From positions 1-34,246 of the IMG/VR virus record IMGVR_UViG_2529292882_000018: 34,246 nucleotides of DNA; one strand, 5' to 3'. A program made the translations under genes and the position numbers. The DNA is from a virus (lineage: Duplodnaviria > Heunggongvirae > Uroviricota > Caudoviricetes). The notes beneath the pieces are model-generated. The model did not search any database. It was not told the DNA's origin and saw only the letters and a list, made by a program, of their open reading frames with translations. This document shows, in pieces, positions 1,612-33,307 of the stretch; position 1 is the first letter of the stretch; every line of letters starts with the position of its first letter.

Positions 1612-1654
1612 TATAAATACTCCGTGGAAAGTTAGTTTTAATTGTTCATTTCAA

Positions 1655-1724: not shown

Positions 1725-1907
1725 TTACCACACCTCTGCGGTAATCTTTACTTTAATGTCATACTTCTTTAAGAGTTTGTGGAAGGTTGATTGATCAATA
1801 CCTTCACCTTTAAACCATTCACCCATCACTACATCAGGTGTCAGTTCAAAATAACGCTTTGCCATTTCTAAAACGATTTCACGAGTGAACTTAACAGGTC
1901 GTGCCAT
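1725..1907 (-). CDS. small putative HTH DNA-binding protein
   Basis: 60-aa ORF with AGGAGG RBS; shares RP..F ... GI..STF..LKKYDIK pattern with the protein at 5281-5514 (paralogs). Confidence 0.5.
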   Translation of the reverse strand: MARPVKFTREIVLEMAKRYFELTPDVVMGEWFKGEGIDQSTFHKLLKKYDIKVKITAEVW

Positions 1908-2426
1908 CTTAAATCCTCCTAAATCTGGATTAATGATTTCTTAAAAAAGAGCGTTAACCGCTCACTATTATTTATATGGGGATTGTATTTTATTTTTCAA
2001 CCCCTCACATTTATCTCTTATATATGTATTTATAACAGAGATATGTTAAAATGTTATTCAGATGTTATCAGACGTGTTAAATGTGTTAAACCGCAGCACG
2101 AATTGCTAAAGAGAAGAACACGAATTAACCAAATTGATGTTTATTCAATCAATTTAGAAAATTGCATAGCACTTTTTGCTAAAGCGGTGAGCATTAATTG
2201 AGCTATGAATTGTAAAGATTTGTTACAAGATTTTCTCTCAGATCCAAATCTTCACAAACATATAACAATTTAACACGATGATAACAATAGGAAGGAAAAT
2301 CGGTAAATTTTCACTTTCAATACAAATATTATACCACATTTTTTCTCGAATTGTCAAGTATAGCACCAAACCTACATAGTGTCAAGAAAGGACTTTCAAA
2401 CCTACACTAGCCCTACACTATGAAAA

Positions 2427-2612
2427 TTGCCCCTGAATTTTGCCCCTGAACCAAAATCCCCTAGATTTCACTATCCCATTTTTGCCCCTGAAACCTACTA
2501 TTTTTGCCCCTGAAATTCTGGGAAACAGTGATTTTGCCCCTCATTTTTGCCCCTGAAATGCCAATAATTGCCCCTGAAAATCTAATTTTTGCCCCTGAAA
2601 TTTGCCCCCGAA
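2427..2612. repeat. array of nine direct 11-bp repeats TTGCCCCTGAA (seven exact, two one-base variants)
   Basis: Copies start at 2427, 2440, 2482, 2504, 2534(variant), 2547, 2568, 2589, 2602(variant); spacing 13-42 bp; inverted variant copy at 2655-2665; same 11-mer forms the left arm of the terminator at 5125. Confidence 0.85.
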
Positions 2613-2813
2613 AAGGATTGGTAAGAAAAACTCTTTATAAAACATTGACTTAGTGAGGGGCAAAAACGGGGAATCGGGCGTGCATAGATATTATATGACA
2701 CATTCGCTACGCTCATGTGTAAAACCAAAAACAACAAATAACCAAAAAGATATTAGGAGGGCGTAGCCCGACTGCGCGAAGCGCTAACCAATTACTTCTA
2801 GTAACACTAATTT

Positions 2814-3036
2814 AAACTAGATGATACTAGATGGTCTTAGAAGGAATTAACTAGTTTGCTCGCTCGCTTCGCTCACTCTCAAACGTCTGCGACGCCACTG
2901 CGTGGCATCGAGAATCACTTCTGAAAGGATTTTCTTGAAAGGGATTTTAAACTAGTTACTAACTGATTCTAGAAAGATAGTAATAATCACTTTGAAGATA
3001 ATAGTAGTTAACTGGTTACTAGATGATTCTAGATCA
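2814..3036. repeat. three copies of a ~20-27 bp CTAG-rich element (core ACTAG-TGAT-CTAGA)
   Basis: Copies at about 2814-2844, 2949-2976 and 3009-3036; eight CTAG tetranucleotides within roughly 250 bp of non-coding DNA. Confidence 0.55.
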
Positions 3037-3293
3037 CTTTAATGATCATGAAAGGTATTGGTATCCCTTCGGGATTGCAACCTTCGGTTGCTAAATTGCT
3101 TCCTAATTATTATTTCTCCAAAAGAAAGATTCTTATATTCTAAAGATACTTCTTCGTTTTGATGATGATTTAATCAAAATCTATGAAGGAGGCGAAGCCG
3201 ACTGAATACCAATTCCTTTCAAATTAGACAAAAATTTCTCGTTATAAATAATAGTGAACTTACTTTGATTCACTTTTTTAGAGGATTTCCACT

Positions 3294-3746
3294 ATGATCA
3301 ATACTAAAACTCCTTTCATTCTTCTGGGTCTGAACCATGATGATAATCTGGCTATGATGCATGTTTTCGCTAATCGTGGTTATAACATCATTCGTCATTC
3401 CGAAGACTCCAATTTCTCAACTGCTTTCTATGCTCTTAAACGTAATGGTCGCCCTACGGTGATCGTAGACTGCTTTACTGATGAAGGTCGTGAACAATAC
3501 AACAACATTCCGGCAATTATTGTTCGTGATGACCTGCCGTTTGATGTTCGTGAATATGACGTTGATTTAGGCTCTTACTATGGGATCGCCGATCTTGACC
3601 AGATTATGGCTGATTACGGTAAACAACCCGCTCAGGAAGCCCCAGAACACGATGAACAAGACGAAGATGACGACGACTACACACCAATCTGTTTCTCTTC
3701 TCACGGTGGCTTCTACGGTTACGATGAAGGCTTAGATATGCTGTAA
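3294..3746 (+). CDS. acidic hypothetical protein
   Basis: 150-aa ORF; strongly acidic with C-terminal EHDEQDEDDDDY run; leader shares a 22-bp element with the gene at 30200. Confidence 0.6.
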   Translation: MINTKTPFILLGLNHDDNLAMMHVFANRGYNIIRHSEDSNFSTAFYALKRNGRPTVIVDCFTDEGREQYNNIPAIIVRDDLPFDVREYDVDLGSYYGIADLDQIMADYGKQPAQEAPEHDEQDEDDDDYTPICFSSHGGFYGYDEGLDML

Positions 3747-3781: not shown

Positions 3782-3810
3782 TTGACAAAAATTTCTGACT
3801 TTTTTATGAT
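3782..3810 (+). promoter_or_regulatory. sigma70-like promoter with overlapping inverted repeat
   Basis: TTGACA (3782-3787), 17-bp spacer, TATGAT (3805-3810); inverted repeat TTGTCAA-6bp-TTGACAA at 3769-3788; further TTGACA/TTGACC boxes downstream. Confidence 0.45.
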
Positions 3811-4199: not shown

Positions 4200-4288
4200 T
4201 AAATTTCTATTATAAATAAAATTGTTCCGGCGGTGATGCCGGAACTAGGAGGACCAAATCATTAAACCGTTTAAGGGGAATTAATACT

Positions 4289-5116
4289 ATGAATACTGTT
4301 ACCGTTATGAATACTGCTAAAACTGCTTCCGTGTCTCTGGTTGTTGATAACACCAAACCGCTGACCATGTCTTCTCGTCAGATCGCTGAATTTACCGGAA
4401 AAGAACATAAGCATGTTAAACGTGATATTAAAACTATGCTTACTTCTCTTGAATTAGATGAGTCCAAATTTGGACGCATCTTTTTTGACCAATATGGACG
4501 TGAACAAACCGAATATCACCTTGACGAAGAACTTACGCTGACTCTTGTTACTGGTTACGATGTTAAGCGTCGAATGGTTGTTATTCAGGAATGGAAGCGA
4601 CTGAAAGAAGAAAATGAAAAACTGCGTTCTCAGCAAATCAACCCTTACGCAAACATGACTAAGCTCGACTGGATTCGTGAGGCAATGGAATTGGAAGCCG
4701 CAAACGAACAACTGATTCAAGAAAAGAAACAACTGGTTGAATTGCATGTTCGTAAAGCTATCGACACACACAGTCTTAGCCGCTTATTAGGCGAAAAACG
4801 AGGCTCTACGACGGTACAAATGATTCTGAAAGGTTTATGTGCTGCTGGTGTTCTTGAGCGTCGTCTGGATGCTTCTGGTAAGCCTAAAGGCTATGATCTG
4901 CTTCCTCCTGGCTATATGTTCGCTCGTATGTCGGCACACGGTCAGATCGAGTTCACTGCTGATGCTATCCCGCATCTCGTAAAACTCGGATTGCTTGAAG
5001 AAGAAAAGGCCGCAACTTTGAAATTGCCACAGCCGAACAACTCACGAGCAATCATTAATAACACTGCTTTGCTGATTCGTCAGAATGCTGGCTCTCTGGA
5101 AGTCTTCGGACTGTAA
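4289..5116 (+). CDS. Rha-family phage regulatory protein (antirepressor-like)
   Basis: 275-aa ORF; N-terminal segment MSSRQIAEFTGKEHKHVKRDIKTML matches the Rha N-terminal signature as I recall it; central coiled-coil. Confidence 0.65.
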   Translation: MNTVTVMNTAKTASVSLVVDNTKPLTMSSRQIAEFTGKEHKHVKRDIKTMLTSLELDESKFGRIFFDQYGREQTEYHLDEELTLTLVTGYDVKRRMVVIQEWKRLKEENEKLRSQQINPYANMTKLDWIREAMELEAANEQLIQEKKQLVELHVRKAIDTHSLSRLLGEKRGSTTVQMILKGLCAAGVLERRLDASGKPKGYDLLPPGYMFARMSAHGQIEFTADAIPHLVKLGLLEEEKAATLKLPQPNNSRAIINNTALLIRQNAGSLEVFGL

Positions 5117-5241: not shown

Positions 5242-5265
5242 AAAAAAGCCACTCCGAAGAGTGGC
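5242..5265 (-). terminator. intrinsic terminator for the minus-strand cassette
   Basis: GCCACTC-CGAA-GAGTGGC hairpin preceded on + strand by AAAAAA (U-run on minus transcript). Confidence 0.65.
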
Positions 5266-5280
5266 AAAGAGAATCAAAAC

Positions 5281-5514
5281 TCAAAAACCTGTTGCTTCTA
5301 CGATCTGACCATCACCGATCTGAACATAGAATTTAATGTCTAACTTCTTCATATTCTTATAGAATTGGGCGATTGAGATCCCATGTTCACTAAGAATCTG
5401 TTCTTTCGCTTCCTTACCACGATCCGCTGTATAGTAAGCGTAGGCAATATCAGCCATCTGTTCAGCGTTAAAACGGGCAGGACGACCGCGAGTAGCTTTA
5501 GTAGTCATAGTCAT
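5281..5514 (-). CDS. small putative HTH DNA-binding protein (paralog of 1725-1907)
   Basis: Track ORF 5281-5541 begins at GTG; an ATG at 5514 with GGAGA RBS gives MTMTTKATRGRPARF...; C-terminal FYKNMKKLDIKF motif shared with the 60-aa protein. Confidence 0.5.
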   Translation of the reverse strand: MTMTTKATRGRPARFNAEQMADIAYAYYTADRGKEAKEQILSEHGISIAQFYKNMKKLDIKFYVQIGDGQIVEATGF

Positions 5515-5543: not shown

Positions 5544-6146
5544 TTATTTAGAGGACTTACATTTTATCGGAAAAAGTTCTCCATCGTCAATACTCATAAA
5601 GAACTCTGCCTTAATCCCGTACTTCTTCAACCGTGAATAGTATGTACCCCGACTTATATCAACCTTGCGAAGCACTTCAAAGAACCCTTTAGGATCGTTG
5701 TAATAGTGGCTATAACGCACGTTAGCGAGTTCAACGAATAGTTCCCTTGTATCACCATAGCCTTTCTTGAAAGCCTCGTTACGATAGCGTGTAATTGCGT
5801 GATTCAATCTCTTCTGTTTCAACACTTCTCGGATCGGCTTCCACTGCAACCGATAGATAGGACCGTCATCCACTCGATAATAACGCTTGATATCAAAATC
5901 AAACCAATCTCGGACTCTCCGAAACTCTGTATGTGATGTTCTATGCTTCTTAAAGAAGTTGTGAACGTCTGTATAACCATTATCGCGGTAAAACTCTATT
6001 AAAATCTCTTTCGCTTCCTCACGACTAAAGCCAGATGTTGTGTAGTCGGTTTTTAAATGCTTATGCTTAACTGGTAAACGATATTCATGATCGGTACAAG
6101 ACAAGGCTAATTCTAATTCATCTCTTTGTTGCTGATTAATTAGCAT
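5544..6146 (-). CDS. hypothetical basic protein with C-terminal HTH-like motif
   Basis: 200-aa ORF with AAGGGGGG RBS; C-terminal [16 protein letters not shown] resembles the HTH of the two small paralogs; arginine/lysine rich. Confidence 0.5.
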
Positions 6147-6234
6147 ACAACCCCCCTTAAATCTTAATACCCGTATTTATCAAAAAATCAACAATTTAAT
6201 AAATACCTTCATATTTCGTAATGAGGGTAATTAC

Positions 6235-14092: not shown

Positions 14093-17000
14093 ATGCAATC
14101 AATCCAATTTAAACGAACTAATGTTTCTGGCAAAAAGCCAACGCCGGAACAATTACAGGTCGGTGAGGTGGCAATCAACCTTAAAGACCATGTTATTTTT
14201 ACCAAAGACCGAGATCATGAAGTAGTTCAAATCTCTGTTTCTCCTGAAACTCACGCGGCACTAGAATCTAAAGTTGATGCTAACAAACAAGAATTGGATA
14301 GCACAATTGCAGTAAATGACCGCAATATTCACGCTAAAGTAGATGAAATTAAACAAACTACTGATTCTACTATCGCAGCAAATCATGCAGAAATTAACAA
14401 TAAAGTTGATGTAATTAAACGCGAAACCGACGCGACAATCGAAGCTAATAAAAATAAAGCTGCTTCCGATCTTGCTGGTGTTAAAGCTGAATTGTCGGAT
14501 ACCATCAACGCTAATAAAAATGCGGCTGCTGTAGCAACTCAGGAACTGGACACCCGCATCAATAAAAAAGTTGATGATATTAAATCCCGTACAGATGCAA
14601 CCATCGCAAGCAATGACAAAGCAATCAATGACAAAGTTGATTTGATTAAGACAGAAACTGACCGCACTATCGCAGCAAATAAAGTCTATGCGGAAAATCA
14701 GTTAACTGACACCTACAATAACCTTACTGGTGTGATTGCAGCTAATAAGCAAGAGGCAGCGGATAACGTTGCGGCATTAACCCGTGATGTTGAAGCCAAA
14801 AATACAGCAATTCATAGCAAAGTTGACAATAACAAGTCTTACACTGATTCTGAACTGGCACGTTTAGAAAGCCGTATTGATGCAGCCGATGGATCTGCTG
14901 ATGGCAAGTACATCAAAAAACACGTAAACACTTATACTGATGGTTATTTGCTGTCTAAGACCGCAAACTATTTTGATGATCCAAATGCGCGTAATCTTGA
15001 TTACTTTGGTGCATTCCGCATGAATGACCTGGCGGGTCATATTGCAATGATCTTGCATGTTCCGCATCCATCTGGTGTTAATCATGCTCGTGGCTTTGAG
15101 TTCACTTATGGGTCTAATCCACATGCTACTGTAAGAACATACGGCTATGATGAATTAGGTAATTTGTCATATTCTCACCGCATGTATCATGAAGGTGATA
15201 AACCTACTCCGGCTGAAATTGGCGCATATTCGAAAGCAGAAATTGACCGGATGTTCCAGAAGACCATCAACTTTGGTGTAGAAACTGGATGGTTTAAAAT
15301 TGCTACCGCCTTTATTCCGCAAAATGACGGACGTAGCTTGAAAATTAGATTGATTGGTGGAAATGGGTGGAACGTAGGACAAACTGGACAATGTAATATT
15401 ATTGAACTTGTTATAAGGACTAGCAACGGTTCGCCTAAAGGAATTAACTTTGTTGCGTATCATCATGTTTCTGGTTACGAAAATCAATTTTGTGCCATTA
15501 ATACAGGTGATGACACTTATGATATCTATGCATATTACTTCGAATTTACTAATATGGTAATGGCTGAATATCAAGCGTCCAGCGATGTTAATTTAACTGT
15601 ACTTGATCGACCTGAATATGTAGGCGATAAACCTGTAGCTGACCATATCTATGATGCATATACAATACACTCCTTTAACAGTTTCAGTAACCGTGGAACG
15701 TTAAATTTTGCTGGAAACCATCAAGGCCAATATGACATTGAGCATATGAACGAACAACCGACAAATGCTAAAAAGATGTTGCGTCGGTTTAGAAGCTCTG
15801 CCCTCGCGACAATCTGGCATGAAACCGTTGATGATAACGCATATCGTCTTGCCACTGGCGGTACAGATTCAGGTCAACAATTATTGCTGACAACAACCGG
15901 GTTACATGTCAAGAGATTAACATTGGATGGCGGTGCTGCGGGTGGAAATGCTGGTATTGATATTCGTCGAGGACCAAACGAAGCAAGCCATTTTAATTTT
16001 ATGGATTATCGCACTGGTCAAGATGTTCGTAATGGCTGGTTTGGTTTTGGTGATTTGACGACCAAAGATTTTATTTGGTGTAACGATAACGGTCAAAACT
16101 CGATAAACTTGATTGAAAACGGTGAATTACATATTACTGGTGGTAAAGGCCAGAAAATTGTAATGAATAGCGAAGTCGCATTGTCTGAAAATGCTCGTTT
16201 GGCTGTTAAAGGTGGTAATTATGGCTTAATTTTTAGAAATGATGGTACTAGTTTCCATATACTGACTACCGATTTAAAAGATTCTTTTGGAAATTGGAAT
16301 AATCGTAGACCATTCAGCTATGATTTCGCCGAAGGTGGATTAGATCTAGGTGGCACAACGACCGAACGCTGTTTACATCTGGGAATTGATGGTAGTACCC
16401 GCATCGAGGAGAACTTAGTTTTCCGATCTGGGTCGCGTCAATCAATGGACTATATTGAAATGATCCATTGGGGTAACAGTAATATCGCTCGTGACAACGT
16501 TTTGAGTATGAAAGACTCAAAAGGATTCCTTGCTGAATTTGAACGAGTGGGTGGGACTAACGGCGTTAAAACCAGATTCTTTGGTGAAACATTCACTGAT
16601 GGTACATTATACCTAAATCAGATGAATAATAGCTCTGAACGATTCTCTATCAACAATTGGGGAAATTCAGAAGTTGGACGCGCGGCAGTAATGGAAATCG
16701 GCGATTCCAAAGGTTATCACTTCTATACGGAACGTAGAACAGATAACAGTTTGATGTTTGATGTTGCTGGCGCTTTTACTGTGCATGGACCTAGCGGGAT
16801 CACTATCAAAAACTCTGATGGTGCTCGTCACATCTGGTTTAGAGATAACAGCGATACAGAAAAGGCTGTTATCTGGGCTACAGATGAGGGTATTTTACAT
16901 ATTCGCAATAACCACGGTGGACAATTTAGTCATCACTTCCAGGGTGCAATGATTAAAGCGGGAGAGCGTGTTCCATATAATAGTGAATACGCTCTTATCC

Positions 17001-17602
17001 GTGGTGATATTTCCGGTGGTGCATGGGTAGACTGGCGAGCGCGTCCGGCTGGATTGTTGGTAGACTGTCAGGACTCACGAAATCAAGCATATAACATTTG
17101 GAAAGCTACTCATTGGGGCGAACAGCACCTTGCGGCGATGGGTGTTCATGCTGGCGGTGGTAATCCTCATGTTGTATTGCATGTGGGTGGGAATGATTAT
17201 GCATTTGCATTTAACGGTGATTTTACTGCTGGTGCTGCTGTATATTGTAACGACGTTTATATTCGTTCTGACCGTCGTCTGAAAATTAATGTTGAAGACT
17301 ACGAAGAGAATGCGGTGGATAAGGTAAATAAACTCAAAGTTAAAACCTATGATAAAGTTAAATCTCTTTCTGACCGCGAAGTTATCGGCCATGAGATTGG
17401 TATTATCGCACAGGATTTGCAAGAAGTATTACCGGAAGCTGTTAGCACTTCTAGTGTCGGATCTCAGGATAACCCAGAAGAAATTTTAACAATTTCAAAC
17501 TCCGCAGTGAACGCGCTTTTAATTAAAGCGGTCCAAGAAATGAGCGAAGAAAATAAAATCCTTCGTGAACGTCTTGCTGCAATTGAGGCTAAATTAGGGT
17601 AA
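14093..17602 (+). CDS. side tail fibre / tailspike-like protein with C-terminal intramolecular chaperone (S74-type) domain
   Basis: 1169 aa; N-terminal tandem ~21-aa KVD..IK..TD.TIAAN repeats; C-terminal SDRRLKINVED...IGIIAQDLQEV... matches the auto-cleaving chaperone domain known from T5 L-shaped fibre and K1F endosialidase. Confidence 0.8.
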   Translation: MQSIQFKRTNVSGKKPTPEQLQVGEVAINLKDHVIFTKDRDHEVVQISVSPETHAALESKVDANKQELDSTIAVNDRNIHAKVDEIKQTTDSTIAANHAEINNKVDVIKRETDATIEANKNKAASDLAGVKAELSDTINANKNAAAVATQELDTRINKKVDDIKSRTDATIASNDKAINDKVDLIKTETDRTIAANKVYAENQLTDTYNNLTGVIAANKQEAADNVAALTRDVEAKNTAIHSKVDNNKSYTDSELARLESRIDAADGSADGKYIKKHVNTYTDGYLLSKTANYFDDPNARNLDYFGAFRMNDLAGHIAMILHVPHPSGVNHARGFEFTYGSNPHATVRTYGYDELGNLSYSHRMYHEGDKPTPAEIGAYSKAEIDRMFQKTINFGVETGWFKIATAFIPQNDGRSLKIRLIGGNGWNVGQTGQCNIIELVIRTSNGSPKGINFVAYHHVSGYENQFCAINTGDDTYDIYAYYFEFTNMVMAEYQASSDVNLTVLDRPEYVGDKPVADHIYDAYTIHSFNSFSNRGTLNFAGNHQGQYDIEHMNEQPTNAKKMLRRFRSSALATIWHETVDDNAYRLATGGTDSGQQLLLTTTGLHVKRLTLDGGAAGGNAGIDIRRGPNEASHFNFMDYRTGQDVRNGWFGFGDLTTKDFIWCNDNGQNSINLIENGELHITGGKGQKIVMNSEVALSENARLAVKGGNYGLIFRNDGTSFHILTTDLKDSFGNWNNRRPFSYDFAEGGLDLGGTTTERCLHLGIDGSTRIEENLVFRSGSRQSMDYIEMIHWGNSNIARDNVLSMKDSKGFLAEFERVGGTNGVKTRFFGETFTDGTLYLNQMNNSSERFSINNWGNSEVGRAAVMEIGDSKGYHFYTERRTDNSLMFDVAGAFTVHGPSGITIKNSDGARHIWFRDNSDTEKAVIWATDEGILHIRNNHGGQFSHHFQGAMIKAGERVPYNSEYALIRGDISGGAWVDWRARPAGLLVDCQDSRNQAYNIWKATHWGEQHLAAMGVHAGGGNPHVVLHVGGNDYAFAFNGDFTAGAAVYCNDVYIRSDRRLKINVEDYEENAVDKVNKLKVKTYDKVKSLSDREVIGHEIGIIAQDLQEVLPEAVSTSSVGSQDNPEEILTISNSAVNALLIKAVQEMSEENKILRERLAAIEAKLG

Positions 17603-17641
17603 TTGGAAAGCGGGGCGAAAATCCCCGCTAAGGATTCTTAT

Positions 17642-17938
17642 ATGGGATATTGGGTAAGTAGTGAAATTAATACTAAAATCGATGCTTTAAAATGGCATGT
17701 ATTTGATATTCCTAACGGCTATGGTACTGCTCGTGCTGGTGTCGCTGTAATGCGTCATAATGCTGGTGGTGGGTGGTCTGATGCACATATTAACGTAGAT
17801 GGTTTGACCGTTGCTCGTCGTCGTGGTGGGACCAATTGGGGATCTACTATAAATTCGTTTGTTCCTGCTGGCTGCACCGTCTCCTTTGGTTTAGGGGGTG
17901 AAGGTGGTGTTGAATATTTTAAATTCATGGAGTTTTAA
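17642..17938 (+). CDS. small Gly-rich protein, paralog 1 of 3
   Basis: Track ORF starts at TTG 17603 inside a hairpin; ATG 17642 with AAGGA RBS gives MGYWV...FDIPNGYG. Confidence 0.55.
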   Translation: MGYWVSSEINTKIDALKWHVFDIPNGYGTARAGVAVMRHNAGGGWSDAHINVDGLTVARRRGGTNWGSTINSFVPAGCTVSFGLGGEGGVEYFKFMEF

Positions 17939-17940
17939 TT

Positions 17941-18246
17941 ATGGCTGGATGGATAAATCAAAGAATGTCAAACGCTATTAGTATTTGGGCTAATGGTGGA
18001 TATTTTGATATCCCCAACGGTTGGGTCACTGATTCATGCGGAATTGTCTTTGCTCATATGGAAGCCATTAACGGTGCTGGTGATCTTGATTCTGAATTGG
18101 CTGTAAATGGATTGATTGAATCAGGTCATCATGCTGGTGATGCTGGGAGTTGGGGCGCTAGTTCTTTAGTTGGCGCTGGTGCTACCGTTAGCTTTACATT
18201 GGGTAAAGGTAGTTTGCATTATTTCAAATTCAGGAGAATGCACTAA
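17941..18246 (+). CDS. small Gly-rich protein, paralog 2 of 3
   Basis: 101 aa, MAGWI...FDIPNGWV; DNA-level similarity to neighbours around the GATATTCCTAACGG block. Confidence 0.55.
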   Translation: MAGWINQRMSNAISIWANGGYFDIPNGWVTDSCGIVFAHMEAINGAGDLDSELAVNGLIESGHHAGDAGSWGASSLVGAGATVSFTLGKGSLHYFKFRRMH

Positions 18247-18548
18247 TGGCATTTTGGGTAGATGGCGCTTTGGGGAATAGGGCGGGTAAAGCAAATCAAG
18301 GATGGTTTGATATTCCTAACGGGTGGACAGCCGACGCTTTCGGGACTATTTCATTTTCCGCTCATTCTTCCGGTGGTGGCGGTGGTGACTCTGAATTGCT
18401 TATTCATGGTTTGTGTGTTTCTGGAAGTCATAAGGGTCATGATTGGGGACAGATTCATTCTTGTATTGCACCGCAAGGGGCGGTAATTACCGTTAGCACG
18501 AATAGAGGGATTGCTCATCTTCGTTATAGACGCTTGAGCAACCGCTAA
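18246..18548 (+). CDS. small Gly-rich protein, paralog 3 of 3
   Basis: 100 aa, MAFWV...FDIPNGWT; start overlaps previous stop (TAATG); AGGAG RBS. Confidence 0.55.
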   Translation: MAFWVDGALGNRAGKANQGWFDIPNGWTADAFGTISFSAHSSGGGGGDSELLIHGLCVSGSHKGHDWGQIHSCIAPQGAVITVSTNRGIAHLRYRRLSNR

Positions 18549-18602
18549 ATAAATAGAATTACGGGTATGTGCCCTATTGTTTAAAATAGAAGGAAAAGAA
18601 TA

Positions 18603-29042: not shown

Positions 29043-29080
29043 TCAATAAATACCCTCATAGAATCTTATGGGGGTATAAC

Positions 29081-29791: not shown

Positions 29792-30155
29792 AACAAAAGC
29801 GCCTCTGGTGGGCGCTTTTTTGTTAGAATATGCTGGCGACGTTAGCTATATTTCTGACCATTTTTTCATTATAGACAAATATACCGCAGATGATAAAGTG
29901 GTATTCGACGAAGTTGATCCGTCTCTGGTTGAAGCAATGAAAGAACCTGAGATCGTCATTGAAGAAACAAAAGAAGAATCTCCGGCAATTGAACCAGTGG
30001 TCGAAGAAGTTACGTCAGATGTTGAAGAAGCACCGGAAGTTAAAGTAGAATCTCCGGTAGCAAACATTTTCTCTGACGAAGCAGAGCATCGTTCTCCTGC
30101 ACATGATACTGATTCATTTTGTGATCTTACTGGTTTCCAAAACTACAATAATTAA
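29754..30155 (+). CDS. acidic Glu/Pro/Val-rich hypothetical protein, start uncertain
   Basis: Track ORF starts at TTG 29754 and runs through the terminator; in-frame GTG 29898 or ATG 29937 are alternative starts. Confidence 0.35.
   Translation: MIPDQKNHGGMDKTKAPLVGAFLLEYAGDVSYISDHFFIIDKYTADDKVVFDEVDPSLVEAMKEPEIVIEETKEESPAIEPVVEEVTSDVEEAPEVKVESPVANIFSDEAEHRSPAHDTDSFCDLTGFQNYNN
29798..29822 (+). terminator. intrinsic terminator after endolysin
   Basis: AGCGCC-TCTGGTG-GGCGCT hairpin followed by TTTTTTG. Confidence 0.75.
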
Positions 30156-30199
30156 TTCTTATAAATAGTAGTGAACTTATTATTTTCGAGGACACTACT

Positions 30200-31198
30200 A
30201 TGAATACTACTTTAGCAAAGGATATCGAATTTACCACAAAAAGCAAACGTGCGACCCCTCCGGTCGAATATGAAACCAGAATCATTAAAGTTTGTCAAGT
30301 GCATGGGTGGTTATACAGTGGTTTTGTGCTTCCTGTAAAGAAACCATTCCAGAACACCAAAGTTTGCATAGAAGTTAACGGAAAGGTTAAAACGCCATGT
30401 ATTAGTCATGTTCTAACTGGTCAGTTTACTGGCAAAGATAGAGTATCACCGCCTAAGAAGAAGTTTAGATTTACCGAAGAAGAACACTTAGAAAACGCTC
30501 GCAAGTTCTACAAGCCGATAGGGTGGGATGTGTTAGGTCTGGCTGAACCTTATCAGGGTGTTGACACTAAACTAATTCTTCGTTGTAAGTGCCACGGAAA
30601 GATTCACAAGAAAGGTGATTTACACAATAACCGCAGACAAGGCGGGTTAACATGCCCTTTGGTTAGGGGTGTACTTAAATCAATTCAGAATGGTAGAAAA
30701 CAGGTTATCAGAAACAAGTTTGCACAGCGCCCTATGCACTTTTATCTAATTCGTGTTGGCGAGAAGTTTTTCAAATATGGAATTACCACTCGCAAAGATC
30801 CGATGCAACGGGTAAGAGAACACCAGAAGCACACCAGCGAGAAAATCACCTTTGAATGCTCACATTTGTTTAACATTGGATGGAAAGCTGGTGATTTAGA
30901 AATGGGGATTAAAAAGAATATTCAGGGCAAGAAAATCCCACGTAAGGTAATGAATAGCGGATTCACAGAAACGCTACCGATTAGCAAGTTGAAAGATGTT
31001 AAATCATTCATCAATGAATACATCCACACCAACCCATCTAAGCCAATGTATTTTGATGATACCAACGCAATCAATCTGAACAACTACATTAGTGATGAAG
31101 ACATAGAACGAGATTTATCGCAGTGGATGAATGCACCGTTAGCTGATTTAACACCGGAAGACTTAGAACTCGATTTAAGCCCTTTAGAGGCTCTTTAA
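30200..31198 (+). CDS. Cys/His-rich protein with GIY-YIG-like (T5orf172-like) segment
   Basis: 332 aa; FYLIRVGEKFFKYGITTR...RVREHQ resembles the GIY-YIG core; N-terminal Cys/His clusters suggest zinc binding; leader shares 22-bp element with gene at 3294. Confidence 0.5.
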   Translation: MNTTLAKDIEFTTKSKRATPPVEYETRIIKVCQVHGWLYSGFVLPVKKPFQNTKVCIEVNGKVKTPCISHVLTGQFTGKDRVSPPKKKFRFTEEEHLENARKFYKPIGWDVLGLAEPYQGVDTKLILRCKCHGKIHKKGDLHNNRRQGGLTCPLVRGVLKSIQNGRKQVIRNKFAQRPMHFYLIRVGEKFFKYGITTRKDPMQRVREHQKHTSEKITFECSHLFNIGWKAGDLEMGIKKNIQGKKIPRKVMNSGFTETLPISKLKDVKSFINEYIHTNPSKPMYFDDTNAINLNNYISDEDIERDLSQWMNAPLADLTPEDLELDLSPLEAL

Positions 31199-33262: not shown

Positions 33263-33307
33263 AGTAGAATTTCCTCTTGTTATTTGAATTACGATATATT
33301 TATATCG

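What the first reader, a model, noticed from the sequence alone, without database searches (positions are those of the whole stretch)
3240..3296. Shared 22-bp leader element upstream of two genes 27 kb apart
The sequences upstream of ORF 3294 (TTATAAATAATAGTGAACTTA) and ORF 30200 (TTATAAATAGTAGTGAACTTA) are identical at 21 of 22 positions and sit at similar distance from the start codons; both leaders also contain inverted repeats flanking the GAGGA RBS. The TATAAATA core resembles the T4 late-promoter consensus, suggesting a phage-specific promoter or translational operator co-regulating the acidic protein and the GIY-YIG-like protein. A degenerate copy occurs near 2995-3015.
Basis: seen in the sequence. 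Interest (0 to 1): 0.6.

Follow-up and report, generated by a model that had tools for sequence, protein, structure and literature searches.

The report
T4-type late promoter cassettes in prophage
The repeated 21-base element is a phage-T4-style "late" promoter plus the start of its transcript, one of about ten such promoter boxes in an E. coli prophage that has no detectable gene for the T4-type factor that normally reads them.

Summary
The repeat is real: TTATAAATA[A/G]TAGTGAACTTA at 3242-3262 and 30159-30179 (20 of 21 bases identical; none expected by chance). The window is almost the whole of a ~35-kb siphovirus-like prophage inserted in E. coli ycdX. It is mosaic with RB49-like T4-type phages (Krischvirus).

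The TATAAATA core belongs to a family-wide motif. (N)ATAAATA occurs 12 times, 11 of them in the 11% of the window that is non-coding. Ten lie 27-119 nt upstream of a co-oriented start codon, including those of the large terminase, tail tube and lysis genes. The motif is depleted inside genes and is kept at matching positions in Salmonella and Proteus relatives. Sequence, A/T variation at -13, absence of a -35 element and leader lengths match T4/RB49 late promoters. No gp55, gp33 or gp45 homologue was found.

At site 2 the box-to-start region forms the 5' arm of a hairpin covering the start codon of a CapR/T5orf172 homing-endonuclease-like cargo gene. This resembles T4 e, I-TevI and mobE. The same leader precedes different cargo genes in relatives.

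The 13 bases beyond the box are shared cassette sequence, not a universal operator. Which polymerase factor reads the boxes is unresolved.

The parts
3242..3262 (+). Site 1 repeat. TATAAATA box at 3243-3250; inferred transcription start at about G3256; followed by the leader of ORF 3294-3746.
   Evidence: The box is invariant in about 20 relatives while the bases after it vary. A sigma-70-like TAGACA-16-AATAAT (10/12) overlaps it at 3225-3252.
30159..30179 (+). Site 2 repeat. TATAAATA box at 30160-30167; inferred start at about G30173; leader of ORF 30200-31198.
   Evidence: The sigma-70 consensus scan lists no site overlapping this box. The same leader precedes different cargo genes in relatives.
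30165..30201 (+). Site 2 leader hairpin. The 5' arm ATAGTAGTG (30165-30173) pairs with the 3' arm CACTACTAT (30193-30201). The 3' arm covers the A and U of the AUG. The GAGGA Shine-Dalgarno sequence (30188-30192) lies in the loop.
   Evidence: The read-through RNA folds at -13.1 kcal/mol (z -3.5); RNA starting at 30173 folds at only -1.1. The commonest variant (L077 type) has a 12-bp stem at -15.2 kcal/mol (z -3.65). The stem never varies, so there is no covariation evidence.
3251..3295 (+). Site 1 leader with weaker pairings of the same topology: ATAGTG 3251-3256 with CACTAT 3290-3295. The alternative is AGTGAA 3253-3258 with TTCACT 3269-3274. Shine-Dalgarno GAGGA at 3281-3285.
   Evidence: -8.8 kcal/mol, z -0.5, not significant on its own.
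1962..1976 (-). Third copy of the core, TATAAATAATAGTGA. It is followed by the hairpin GAGCGgttaaCGCTC plus a T-run, then the 60-aa ORF 1907-1725.
   Evidence: inverted repeat I2, 15/15. In relatives the box is kept and the hairpin plus T-run is kept with different sequence.
2027..2034 (-). TATAAATA box in tandem with the 1976 box, pointing leftward.
4211..4218 (+). TATAAATA box upstream of the Rha-family gene 4289-5116, followed from about +1 by the hairpin GTTCCGGCGGTGATGCCGGAAC.
   Evidence: In relatives both arms of this hairpin differ while a hairpin is kept (read by eye; pairs not counted).
6174..6180 (-). GATAAATA box 27 nt upstream of the 200-aa ORF 6146-5544.
   Evidence: Conserved in Salmonella and Proteus relatives as TATAAATAcggg.
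6199..6205 (+). AATAAATA box 29 nt upstream of the large terminase gene (6235).
18549..18555 (+). AATAAATA box 47 nt upstream of the tail tube gene (18603).
29046..29052 (+). AATAAATA box (CATAAATA in relatives) 28 nt upstream of ORF 29081, the first gene of the group that ends in the endolysin gene.
33297..33304 (-). TATAAATA box 34 nt upstream of the small signal-peptide protein gene 33262-33017.
   Evidence: invariant in 24 relatives and found in front of three different alleles.
30200..31198 (+). Cargo gene behind site 2: a CapR/T5orf172 (GIY-YIG-like) homing-endonuclease-like protein.
   Evidence: PHROG 681 'endonuclease'. Weak CapR and MUG113 hits for this protein; paralogues in the same slot pass the Pfam cut-offs. 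Distant homologues in T5 and Krischvirus phages.
3294..3746 (+). Gene behind site 1: a 150-aa protein with many divergent alleles, an alpha/beta domain, an acidic linker and a conserved C-terminal peptide.
29883..30138 (+). Fragment of the Krischvirus inh gene (95-98% nucleotide identity) immediately upstream of site 2.

Best explanation
The shared element is a T4-type late promoter plus the first bases of its transcript. The promoter is a -10-only TATAAATA box occupying -13 to -6 with no -35 element. It is one of at least ten (N)ATAAATA boxes that head nearly every transcription unit of a ~35-kb prophage family integrated in ycdX. The family is siphovirus-like, occurs in E. coli, Salmonella and Proteus, and has repeatedly exchanged DNA with RB49-like T4-type phages (Krischvirus).

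Shown:
- The repeat is real.
- The box is enriched between genes and depleted within them.
- Its position is conserved across genera.
- It matches Krischvirus late promoters in sequence and spacing.

Inferred:
- Transcription starts about 6 nt after the box, at the G of TAGTG.
- At site 2 the bases from the 3' end of the box to the start site form the 5' arm of a hairpin whose 3' arm covers the AUG. Read-through RNA from the upstream operon would therefore be poorly translated, and RNA begun at the box would be open.
- This would give the homing-endonuclease-like cargo gene its own expression level or timing, as in T4 e, I-TevI, Aeh1 mobE and T4 segB.

The 13 bases shared beyond the box reflect a common promoter-plus-leader cassette of the form box-N-TAGTG. 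This cassette sits at the 5' edge of two variable gene slots.

Unresolved: which factor reads the boxes. My estimates are an unrecognised factor encoded by the element (about 0.4), gp55 of a co-infecting T4-type phage (about 0.3), sigma-70 alone (about 0.15), and that the boxes are not promoters at all (about 0.15).
For: - Repeat: two matches, none expected by chance. A third copy of the core lies at 1976-1962 on the minus strand.
- ATAAATA occurs 12 times, 11 intergenic. Ten of the 11 lie 27-119 nt upstream of a co-oriented ATG.
- Non-coding DNA: 11 observed against 2.9 expected, reached in 0 of 2000 shuffles. Coding DNA: 1 observed against 8.7 expected. Host flanking genes show no depletion, while phage JSE does (33 against 63).
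- The boxes never vary at each site in 20-27 relatives although the flanks vary. They are kept at matching positions in Salmonella and Proteus relatives.
- JSE late genes (23, 20, 3, inh, alt, homing endonucleases) use NATAAATA at similar distances from the ATG.
- Published descriptions: the box occupies -13 to -6, and A or T at -13 is common in RB49 (PMC1524935). In T4, 32 of 50 late promoters are perfect and 9 have A at -13, with no -35 element (PMC2988020).
- One JSE late promoter shares 18 nt with site 1 (TATAAATAATAGTGAACT). By my own arithmetic, not a tool result, that is about 13/4^9 ≈ 5e-5 by chance for the 9 bases after the box.
- Site 2 hairpin: -13.1 kcal/mol (z -3.5) against -1.1 for RNA started at the box. 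The 12-bp variant gives -15.2 kcal/mol.
- The JSE homing-endonuclease gene EpJSE_00015 has the same arrangement: a -12 kcal/mol hairpin with the box in the loop and the Shine-Dalgarno sequence paired.
- Known precedents for this arrangement are T4 e, soc, 49, I-TevI, mobE and segB (PMC3014915).
- The same leader precedes four different CapR/T5orf172 genes in relatives.
Against: - No gp55, gp33 or gp45 homologue was found in the window or its relatives by tblastn, by a 60-sequence gp55 HMM, or by hhalign. Only gp55 was tested beyond tblastn.
- No transcription start has been mapped.
- Site 1 overlaps a plausible sigma-70 promoter (TAGACA-16-AATAAT, 10/12). That promoter shares GACAAAAATTTCT with the sigma-70 promoter at 3782.
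- The site 2 stem never varies across relatives, so there is no compensatory covariation.
- The site 1 fold is not better than shuffled sequence (z -0.5).
- If the same factor reads both the upstream operon and the site 2 box, the hairpin cannot give early/late discrimination. It could only uncouple translation from the upstream operon.
- Neither full leader is present in any sequenced phage in the collection searched.
Confidence: 0.6

Rival explanations
1. The boxes are ordinary sigma-70 promoters. The true -10 hexamer would lie a few bases downstream (AATAAT, AATAGT or TAAAAT), and the shared TAGTGAACTTA would be an operator for a prophage repressor or regulator that overlaps the start site.
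For: Site 1 has TAGACA-16-AATAAT (10/12) and site 4211 has TTGGTA-18-TAAAAT (9/12). Site 1 shares GACAAAAATTTCT with the sigma-70 promoter at 3782-3810. AGTGAA/TTCACT at site 1 forms an inverted repeat. The element encodes three paralogous small helix-turn-helix proteins.
Against: The sigma-70 consensus scan lists no site overlapping the site 2 box, and by inspection most other boxes lack a -35 or TGn element. The constraint falls on ATAAATA itself, while the two bases that would complete the shifted hexamer vary (AT, GT, CT, CC, AA, TA, GA). The spacing of the inverted repeats differs between sites (10, 15 and 19 nt), which suits RNA hairpins rather than a dimeric operator. The TAGTGAAC part is replaced in many site 1 alleles.
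Confidence: 0.15
2. The shared sequence is an RNA-level translational operator, a site where one RNA-binding protein (RegA-like) or small RNA co-represses ORF 3294 and ORF 30200.
For: The two leaders also resemble each other around the start codon (ACTATGA..AATACT).
Against: If transcription starts about 6 nt after the box, only about 7 of the 21 shared bases are in the RNA. The downstream part varies among site 1 alleles. ORF 4289 shares the same sequence around its start codon without sharing the leader. No RegA homologue was noticed, though this was not tested specifically.
Confidence: 0.07
3. The repeat is a neutral scar of recombination or duplication. One promoter-leader cassette was copied to a second slot and has no function beyond that of any promoter.
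For: The cassette marks the edge of variable slots. In L079 and L081 the breakpoint lies exactly at the box, and different genes follow the same leader. Krischvirus PeSL cassettes behave as recombination junctions (PMC2839356).
Against: This is compatible with the best explanation rather than an alternative to it. The box-N-TAGTG form recurs at five different promoters across genera. The leader is far better conserved than the genes that follow it.
Confidence: 0.15

Closest known systems
T4-type late promoters (TATAAATA, read by gp55 with gp33 and the gp45 clamp), including the RB49/Krischvirus form (A/T)ATAAATA
   Same: Identical 8-mer. The same tolerated variation at -13. No -35 element. Leaders of about 20-60 nt. 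Location in front of virion, lysis and homing-endonuclease genes. Avoidance of the motif inside genes (PMC1524935, PMC2988020).
   Different: The host genome is a temperate, integrase-bearing, siphovirus-like prophage with lambda-type terminase and portal genes. It has no detectable gp55, gp33 or gp45. Activity has not been shown.
Hairpins that sequester the translation start and have a late promoter in the 5' arm: T4 e, soc, 49, I-TevI; Aeh1 mobE; T4 segB
   Same: At site 2 the box and start site lie in the 5' arm, and the 3' arm covers the start codon of an endonuclease-like gene. RNA started at the box is unstructured. The homing-endonuclease gene EpJSE_00015 of Krischvirus JSE shows the same design.
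   Different: Read-through here would come from the element's own box-driven operon, not from early or middle transcripts. The Shine-Dalgarno sequence sits in the loop rather than the stem. There is neither covariation nor experiment.
PeSL regulatory cassettes of RB49/phi1 (Arbiol et al. 2010, PMC2839356)
   Same: Short conserved cassettes containing a promoter, found at the borders of variable ORFan or cargo genes, that act as recombination junctions in Krischvirus-related DNA.
   Different: PeSLs combine a sigma-70 early promoter with a terminator stem-loop. The present cassette is a late-type box plus leader, and there is no evidence for mini-circles.
CapR/T5orf172 homing-endonuclease family of phage ICP1 and its satellite PLE (PMC8096241)
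   Same: The cargo genes behind the site 2 leader have CapR and MUG113/T5orf172 domains. They sit in an integrated element next to DNA copied from a lytic phage.
   Different: Different hosts and phages. No evidence here for repressor activity or for cleavage of a phage target.

Membership tests
T4-type late promoter | TATAAATA (or A at -13) as the only conserved promoter element | tested here: met
   Exact 8-mer at seven sites and NATAAATA at four more intergenic sites. The box is invariant across relatives while the flanks vary.
T4-type late promoter | No -35 element | tested here: inconclusive
   The sigma-70 scan lists no site overlapping the site 2 box. Site 1 is overlapped by a 10/12 sigma-70-like promoter.
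T4-type late promoter | Genome encodes the late sigma gp55 (with gp33 and gp45) | tested here: not met
   tblastn for gp55, gp33 and gp45. HMM built from 60 gp55 sequences against all ORFs of the window and 50 related loci (best E 1.9). hhalign probabilities at most 1.2%. Only gp55 was tested by profile methods. The one gene of the element outside the window is a Nu1-like small terminase.
T4-type late promoter | Transcription starts about 6 nt downstream of the box and depends on gp55-RNA polymerase | not testable with these tools
   Requires 5' end mapping or in vitro transcription.
T4-type late promoter | Placed in front of late (virion, lysis) genes with short leaders | tested here: met
   Boxes lie 27-47 nt before the large terminase, tail tube and lysis-group genes, as in JSE.
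Late-promoter-embedded hairpin sequestering the translation start (T4 e / I-TevI / mobE type) | A stable hairpin in read-through RNA that includes the Shine-Dalgarno sequence and/or the AUG | tested here: met
   Site 2: -13.1 kcal/mol, z -3.5; the variant gives -15.2 kcal/mol, z -3.65. Site 1 alone is inconclusive (z -0.5).
Late-promoter-embedded hairpin sequestering the translation start (T4 e / I-TevI / mobE type) | RNA started at the promoter lacks the 5' arm | tested here: inconclusive
   True if the start is 6 nt after the box: RNA from 30173 folds at only -1.1 kcal/mol. The start site is inferred from the literature, not mapped.
Late-promoter-embedded hairpin sequestering the translation start (T4 e / I-TevI / mobE type) | The stem is maintained by compensatory changes | tested here: inconclusive
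   Eight pairs never vary, there is no change on both sides of any pair, and one sequence breaks a pair.
PeSL cassette | A sigma-70 consensus early promoter joined to a terminator stem-loop | tested here: not met
   Neither site has a stem-loop plus T-run joined to a consensus sigma-70 promoter. It works like a PeSL as a junction cassette but is not one.

The most novel reading that the evidence does not exclude
The whole prophage family is wired with T4-type late promoters but carries no factor to read them. Its virion, lysis and cargo genes would then be switched on in trans by the gp55/gp33/gp45 machinery of an infecting T4-type phage with unmodified cytosine (Krischvirus). That would make it a virion-encoding hitch-hiker or an infection-triggered anti-phage element.

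Under this reading, the Krischvirus-derived tail fibres, the Inh fragment, the uvsW pieces and the homing-endonuclease genes are the traces and tools of that interaction.
Probability: 0.25. Interest if true: 0.9.

Novelty: new variant of a known kind. Interest (0 to 1): 0.62.

Why it matters
T4-type late promoters are described only for phages that encode gp55 (PMC2988020; my searches of the held literature found no other case). A temperate siphovirus-like prophage family in E. coli, Salmonella and Proteus uses the same box in front of almost all its operons, avoids it inside genes, and shows no gp55.

That implies one of two things. Either there is an unrecognised factor with gp55-like specificity, or these prophage genes are read by the transcription machinery of a superinfecting lytic phage. 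The second would be a new kind of helper dependence or infection sensing.

Either outcome can be tested directly with a lysogen, an RB49-like phage and 5' end mapping. The promoter-leader cassette at the edge of cargo slots also extends the idea of regulatory cassettes as recombination junctions from lytic T4-type phages to prophages.

Tried and rejected
- **T4-like phage:** my first guess was that the window is a T4-like phage. PHROG and Pfam annotation shows lambda-type terminase and portal genes, an HK97-type capsid-protease fusion, a tape measure protein and a serine integrase. E. coli genomes show insertion in ycdX.
- **Search for gp55, gp33, gp45:** tblastn, a profile HMM and hhalign all gave nothing.
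- **Rfam:** no match for the window or the non-coding arm.
- **17-mer scan of viral contigs:** the matches outside the prophage family and Krischvirus contigs are roughly what chance would give in my rough estimate; they include a recurrent marine T4-like promoter in front of a gene whose product starts like a tail sheath.
- **Other collections:** scans of metagenome and genome collections for ORF 30200 and ORF 3294 found nothing.
- **Leaders against sequenced phages:** only chance-level matches.
- **Covariation in the site 2 hairpin:** none, because the stem is invariant.
- **Literature:** searches for T4 late promoters in prophages or satellites, and for a ycdX prophage, found no prior description.

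Full report
**Observation.** TTATAAATAATAGTGAACTTA lies at 3242-3262 and TTATAAATAGTAGTGAACTTA at 30159-30179, both on the + strand. They are the only matches at up to three mismatches, and shuffles gave none. The quoted strings are 21 nt with one difference, so the identity is 20/21. The box ends 43 nt and 32 nt before the ATGs at 3294 and 30200. A third copy of the core, TATAAATAATAGTGA, lies on the minus strand at 1976-1962, upstream of a 60-aa ORF. The 'degenerate copy' is GATAATAGTAGTTAACT at 2997-3013. It has lost one A of the box and has no gene behind it.

**What the window is.** It is not a T4-like phage. It encodes:
- a lambda-type large terminase, a portal protein and an HK97-type capsid-protease fusion;
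- a tail tube, a tape measure and a tail tip protein;
- a D-Ala-D-Ala carboxypeptidase-type endolysin;
- a Rha-family regulator;
- a large serine recombinase.

About 60 of 5426 complete E. coli genomes carry the element, inserted in ycdX. The window is nearly the whole ~35-kb element. The one gene beyond its left end is a Nu1-like small terminase. G+C content is about 41%, close to the 40.5% of RB49 (PMC1524935).

Several segments are near-identical to Krischvirus (RB49/JSE-like) phages:
- the distal long tail fibre region, at 88-95%;
- a 256-nt piece of inh at 29883-30138, at 95-98%, directly upstream of site 2;
- homologues of two Krischvirus ORFans at the right end;
- an intergenic repeat and a terminator stem-loop.

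**The box is a family-wide signal.**
- All seven TATAAATA in the window are intergenic.
- The 7-mer ATAAATA occurs 12 times, 11 of them in the 3.7 kb (11%) of the window that is non-coding.
- Ten of those 11 lie 27-119 nt upstream of a co-oriented start codon. The genes are ORF 1907(-), ORF 3294, the Rha-family gene, ORF 6146(-), the large terminase, the tail tube, the first gene of the lysis group, ORF 30200 and ORF 33262(-).
- Shuffling gives 2.9 expected in non-coding DNA (11 observed, reached in 0 of 2000 shuffles) and 8.7 expected in coding DNA (1 observed).
- Flanking host genes show no depletion. Phage JSE does (33 observed against 63 expected).
- In 20-27 related loci from IMG/VR the box never varies at each site, while the flanks, and even the downstream genes, differ.
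- In divergent relatives from Salmonella and Proteus, also inserted in ycdX, boxes sit at matching positions. The neighbouring 200-aa protein is 47% (Salmonella) and 68% (Proteus) identical to the window's.

A directional, conserved signal upstream of genes that is avoided inside genes is best read as a promoter element.

**Which kind of promoter.**
- The T4 late promoter is TATAAATA at -13 to -6 with no -35 element. T at -13 is often A in RB49 (PMC1524935). In T4, 32 of 50 sites are perfect and nine have A at -13 (PMC2988020).
- JSE uses NATAAATA in front of genes 23, 20, 3, inh, alt and its homing endonucleases, at distances from the ATG like those seen here.
- One JSE late promoter shares 18 nt with site 1 (TATAAATAATAGTGAACT). 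Only 13 exact boxes exist in that genome.
- A sigma-70 reading is weak. The scan lists no sigma-70-like site overlapping the site 2 box, and by inspection most other boxes have no -35 or TGn element. The invariant part is ATAAATA, not the shifted hexamer.
- Site 1 is the exception. It is overlapped by TAGACA-16-AATAAT (10/12), which shares GACAAAAATTTCT with the sigma-70 promoter at 3782.

**The leaders.** With the start inferred 6 nt after the box, site 2 RNA begins at G30173.
- Read-through RNA folds into ATAGUAGUG/CACUACUAU at -13.1 kcal/mol (z -3.5). This pairs the A and U of the AUG.
- RNA started at the box is unstructured (-1.1 kcal/mol).
- The commonest allele extends the stem to 12 bp (-15.2 kcal/mol, z -3.65).
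- This is the design of T4 e, soc, 49, I-TevI, Aeh1 mobE and T4 segB (PMC3014915). It is also the design of the JSE homing-endonuclease gene EpJSE_00015.
- The stem never varies among ten alleles, so there is no covariation support.
- Site 1 has the same topology but is no better than shuffled sequence (z -0.5).
- A TTCTC tract just 5' of several boxes is complementary to the GAGGA Shine-Dalgarno sequence. It is a second candidate sequestering helix.

**Why two sites share more than the box.**
- Between the endolysin and integrase genes, relatives carry different cargo. Seven of the 25 relatives examined have nothing there.
- Others carry one of four different CapR+MUG113/T5orf172 genes (332, 391, 394 and about 390 aa), plus Krischvirus-like uvsW, uvsW.1, inh and gp51 pieces.
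- Where cargo is present, a rightward cargo gene, or in some relatives only its truncated remnant, is preceded by [T/A/G]ATAAATAGTAGTGA... through to ACTACTATG.
- The site 1 gene has many divergent alleles (43-96% identity), and its leader exists in five variants.
- The form box-N-TAGTG recurs at five different promoters across genera.
- The 21-mer is therefore a promoter-leader cassette at the edge of variable slots. It is functionally akin to Krischvirus PeSL cassettes (PMC2839356) but does not meet their definition.
- Neither leader occurs in any sequenced phage in the collection searched. The site 2 leader is in 34 of 5426 E. coli genomes, always chromosomal and at most twice per genome.

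**Verdict.** The promoter interpretation is supported on sequence, statistical and comparative grounds, but there is no experimental evidence. Specific co-regulation of the two genes, or a dedicated operator, is not supported. The unexpected result is the context: a regulon of T4-late-type boxes in a prophage family with no detectable gp55. Confidence in the promoter-plus-gated-leader explanation is about 0.6, and the identity of the reading factor is open.

Noticed in passing
window 2425-2613 (+), with an inverted copy at 2654-2671: An array of about 7-10 iterons, TTTTGCCCCTGAA, spaced 13-43 nt apart in a ~1.4-kb non-coding arm. It is a candidate replication origin or regulator-binding array. 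No replication gene is recognisable in the element.
   Followed up: partly
window 3049-3221 (+): A stretch of about 175 nt just upstream of site 1 folds into a very stable structure (-51.8 kcal/mol, z -4.9) closed by 37-nt arms. It contains two UUCG-loop hairpins and has no Rfam match. Its middle part (3106-3184) is about 80% identical to at least four intergenic repeats in phage JSE (65502-65568, 102138-102187, 102266-102338, 152391-152460).
   Followed up: partly
window 5242-5265 (-); JSE 61398-61421: A 24-nt stretch holding the terminator stem-loop GCCACTCTTCGGAGTGGC and a T-run is 24/24 identical to a JSE terminator. In JSE that terminator ends a ~170-nt non-coding unit driven by the TATAAATAATAGTGAACT late promoter, a possible late small RNA of Krischvirus.
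   Followed up: partly
window 29883-30138; relatives L126, L138, L140, L143: The slot between the endolysin and integrase genes holds Krischvirus-derived DNA. In relatives this includes inh at 98%, uvsW and uvsW.1 at 70-83%, and a gp51 piece at 92%. It is interleaved with several paralogous CapR/T5orf172 homing-endonuclease-like genes on both strands. This suggests endonuclease-driven exchange between prophage and lytic phage.
   Followed up: partly
window 14093-18564: A T-even-type distal long tail fibre gene (1169 aa) and three small downstream ORFs show 88-95% nucleotide identity to Krischvirus and T-even phages. Another family member (L003) carries a gp38-type adhesin instead.
   Followed up: partly
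window 1612-1619 (+) and 1653-1682: A TATAAATA box abuts the start codon of the minus-strand ORF 1611-670 and is followed about 35 nt later by a strong plus-strand terminator. A short antisense RNA across that gene's translation start is possible. The box is conserved even where the neighbouring gene is a different allele.
   Followed up: no
window 6199-6213 and 29046-29060: A second shared leader class, ATAAATACC(Y)TCATA, heads the large terminase gene and the lysis gene group. In Salmonella it also heads the tail fibre gene.
   Followed up: no
window 3294-3746: The ORF 3294 protein has many divergent alleles within E. coli and Shigella (43-96% identity). It has a P-loop-kinase-like fold without a Walker A motif, an acidic linker, and a strongly conserved C-terminal peptide DDYAPIxFSSxxGFYGYDEGLDML. 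The pattern looks like a protein-interaction tail.
   Followed up: partly
window 1725-1907 (-), 5281-5508 (-), 5544-6146 (-): Three proteins (60, 75 and 200 aa) share a helix-turn-helix segment ending in ...[FY]xx[LM]KK[YL][DG]IK. The 200-aa protein is conserved across E. coli, Salmonella and Proteus, diverges from the large terminase gene, and has its own box.
   Followed up: partly
window 2328-2385 (-) and 3782-3810 (+): Near-perfect sigma-70 promoters: TTGACA-18-TATAAT with TG, TTGACA-17-TATACT, and TTGACA-17-TATGAT. They are probably the element's early promoters. The rightward one precedes the 110-aa ORF 3867.
   Followed up: no
window 4283-4300, 30194-30211, 3289-3308: The regions around three start codons share ACTATGAATACT (ORF 4289 and ORF 30200) or ACTATGAtcAATACT (ORF 3294). 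This points to cassette exchange that extends into the first codons.
   Followed up: no
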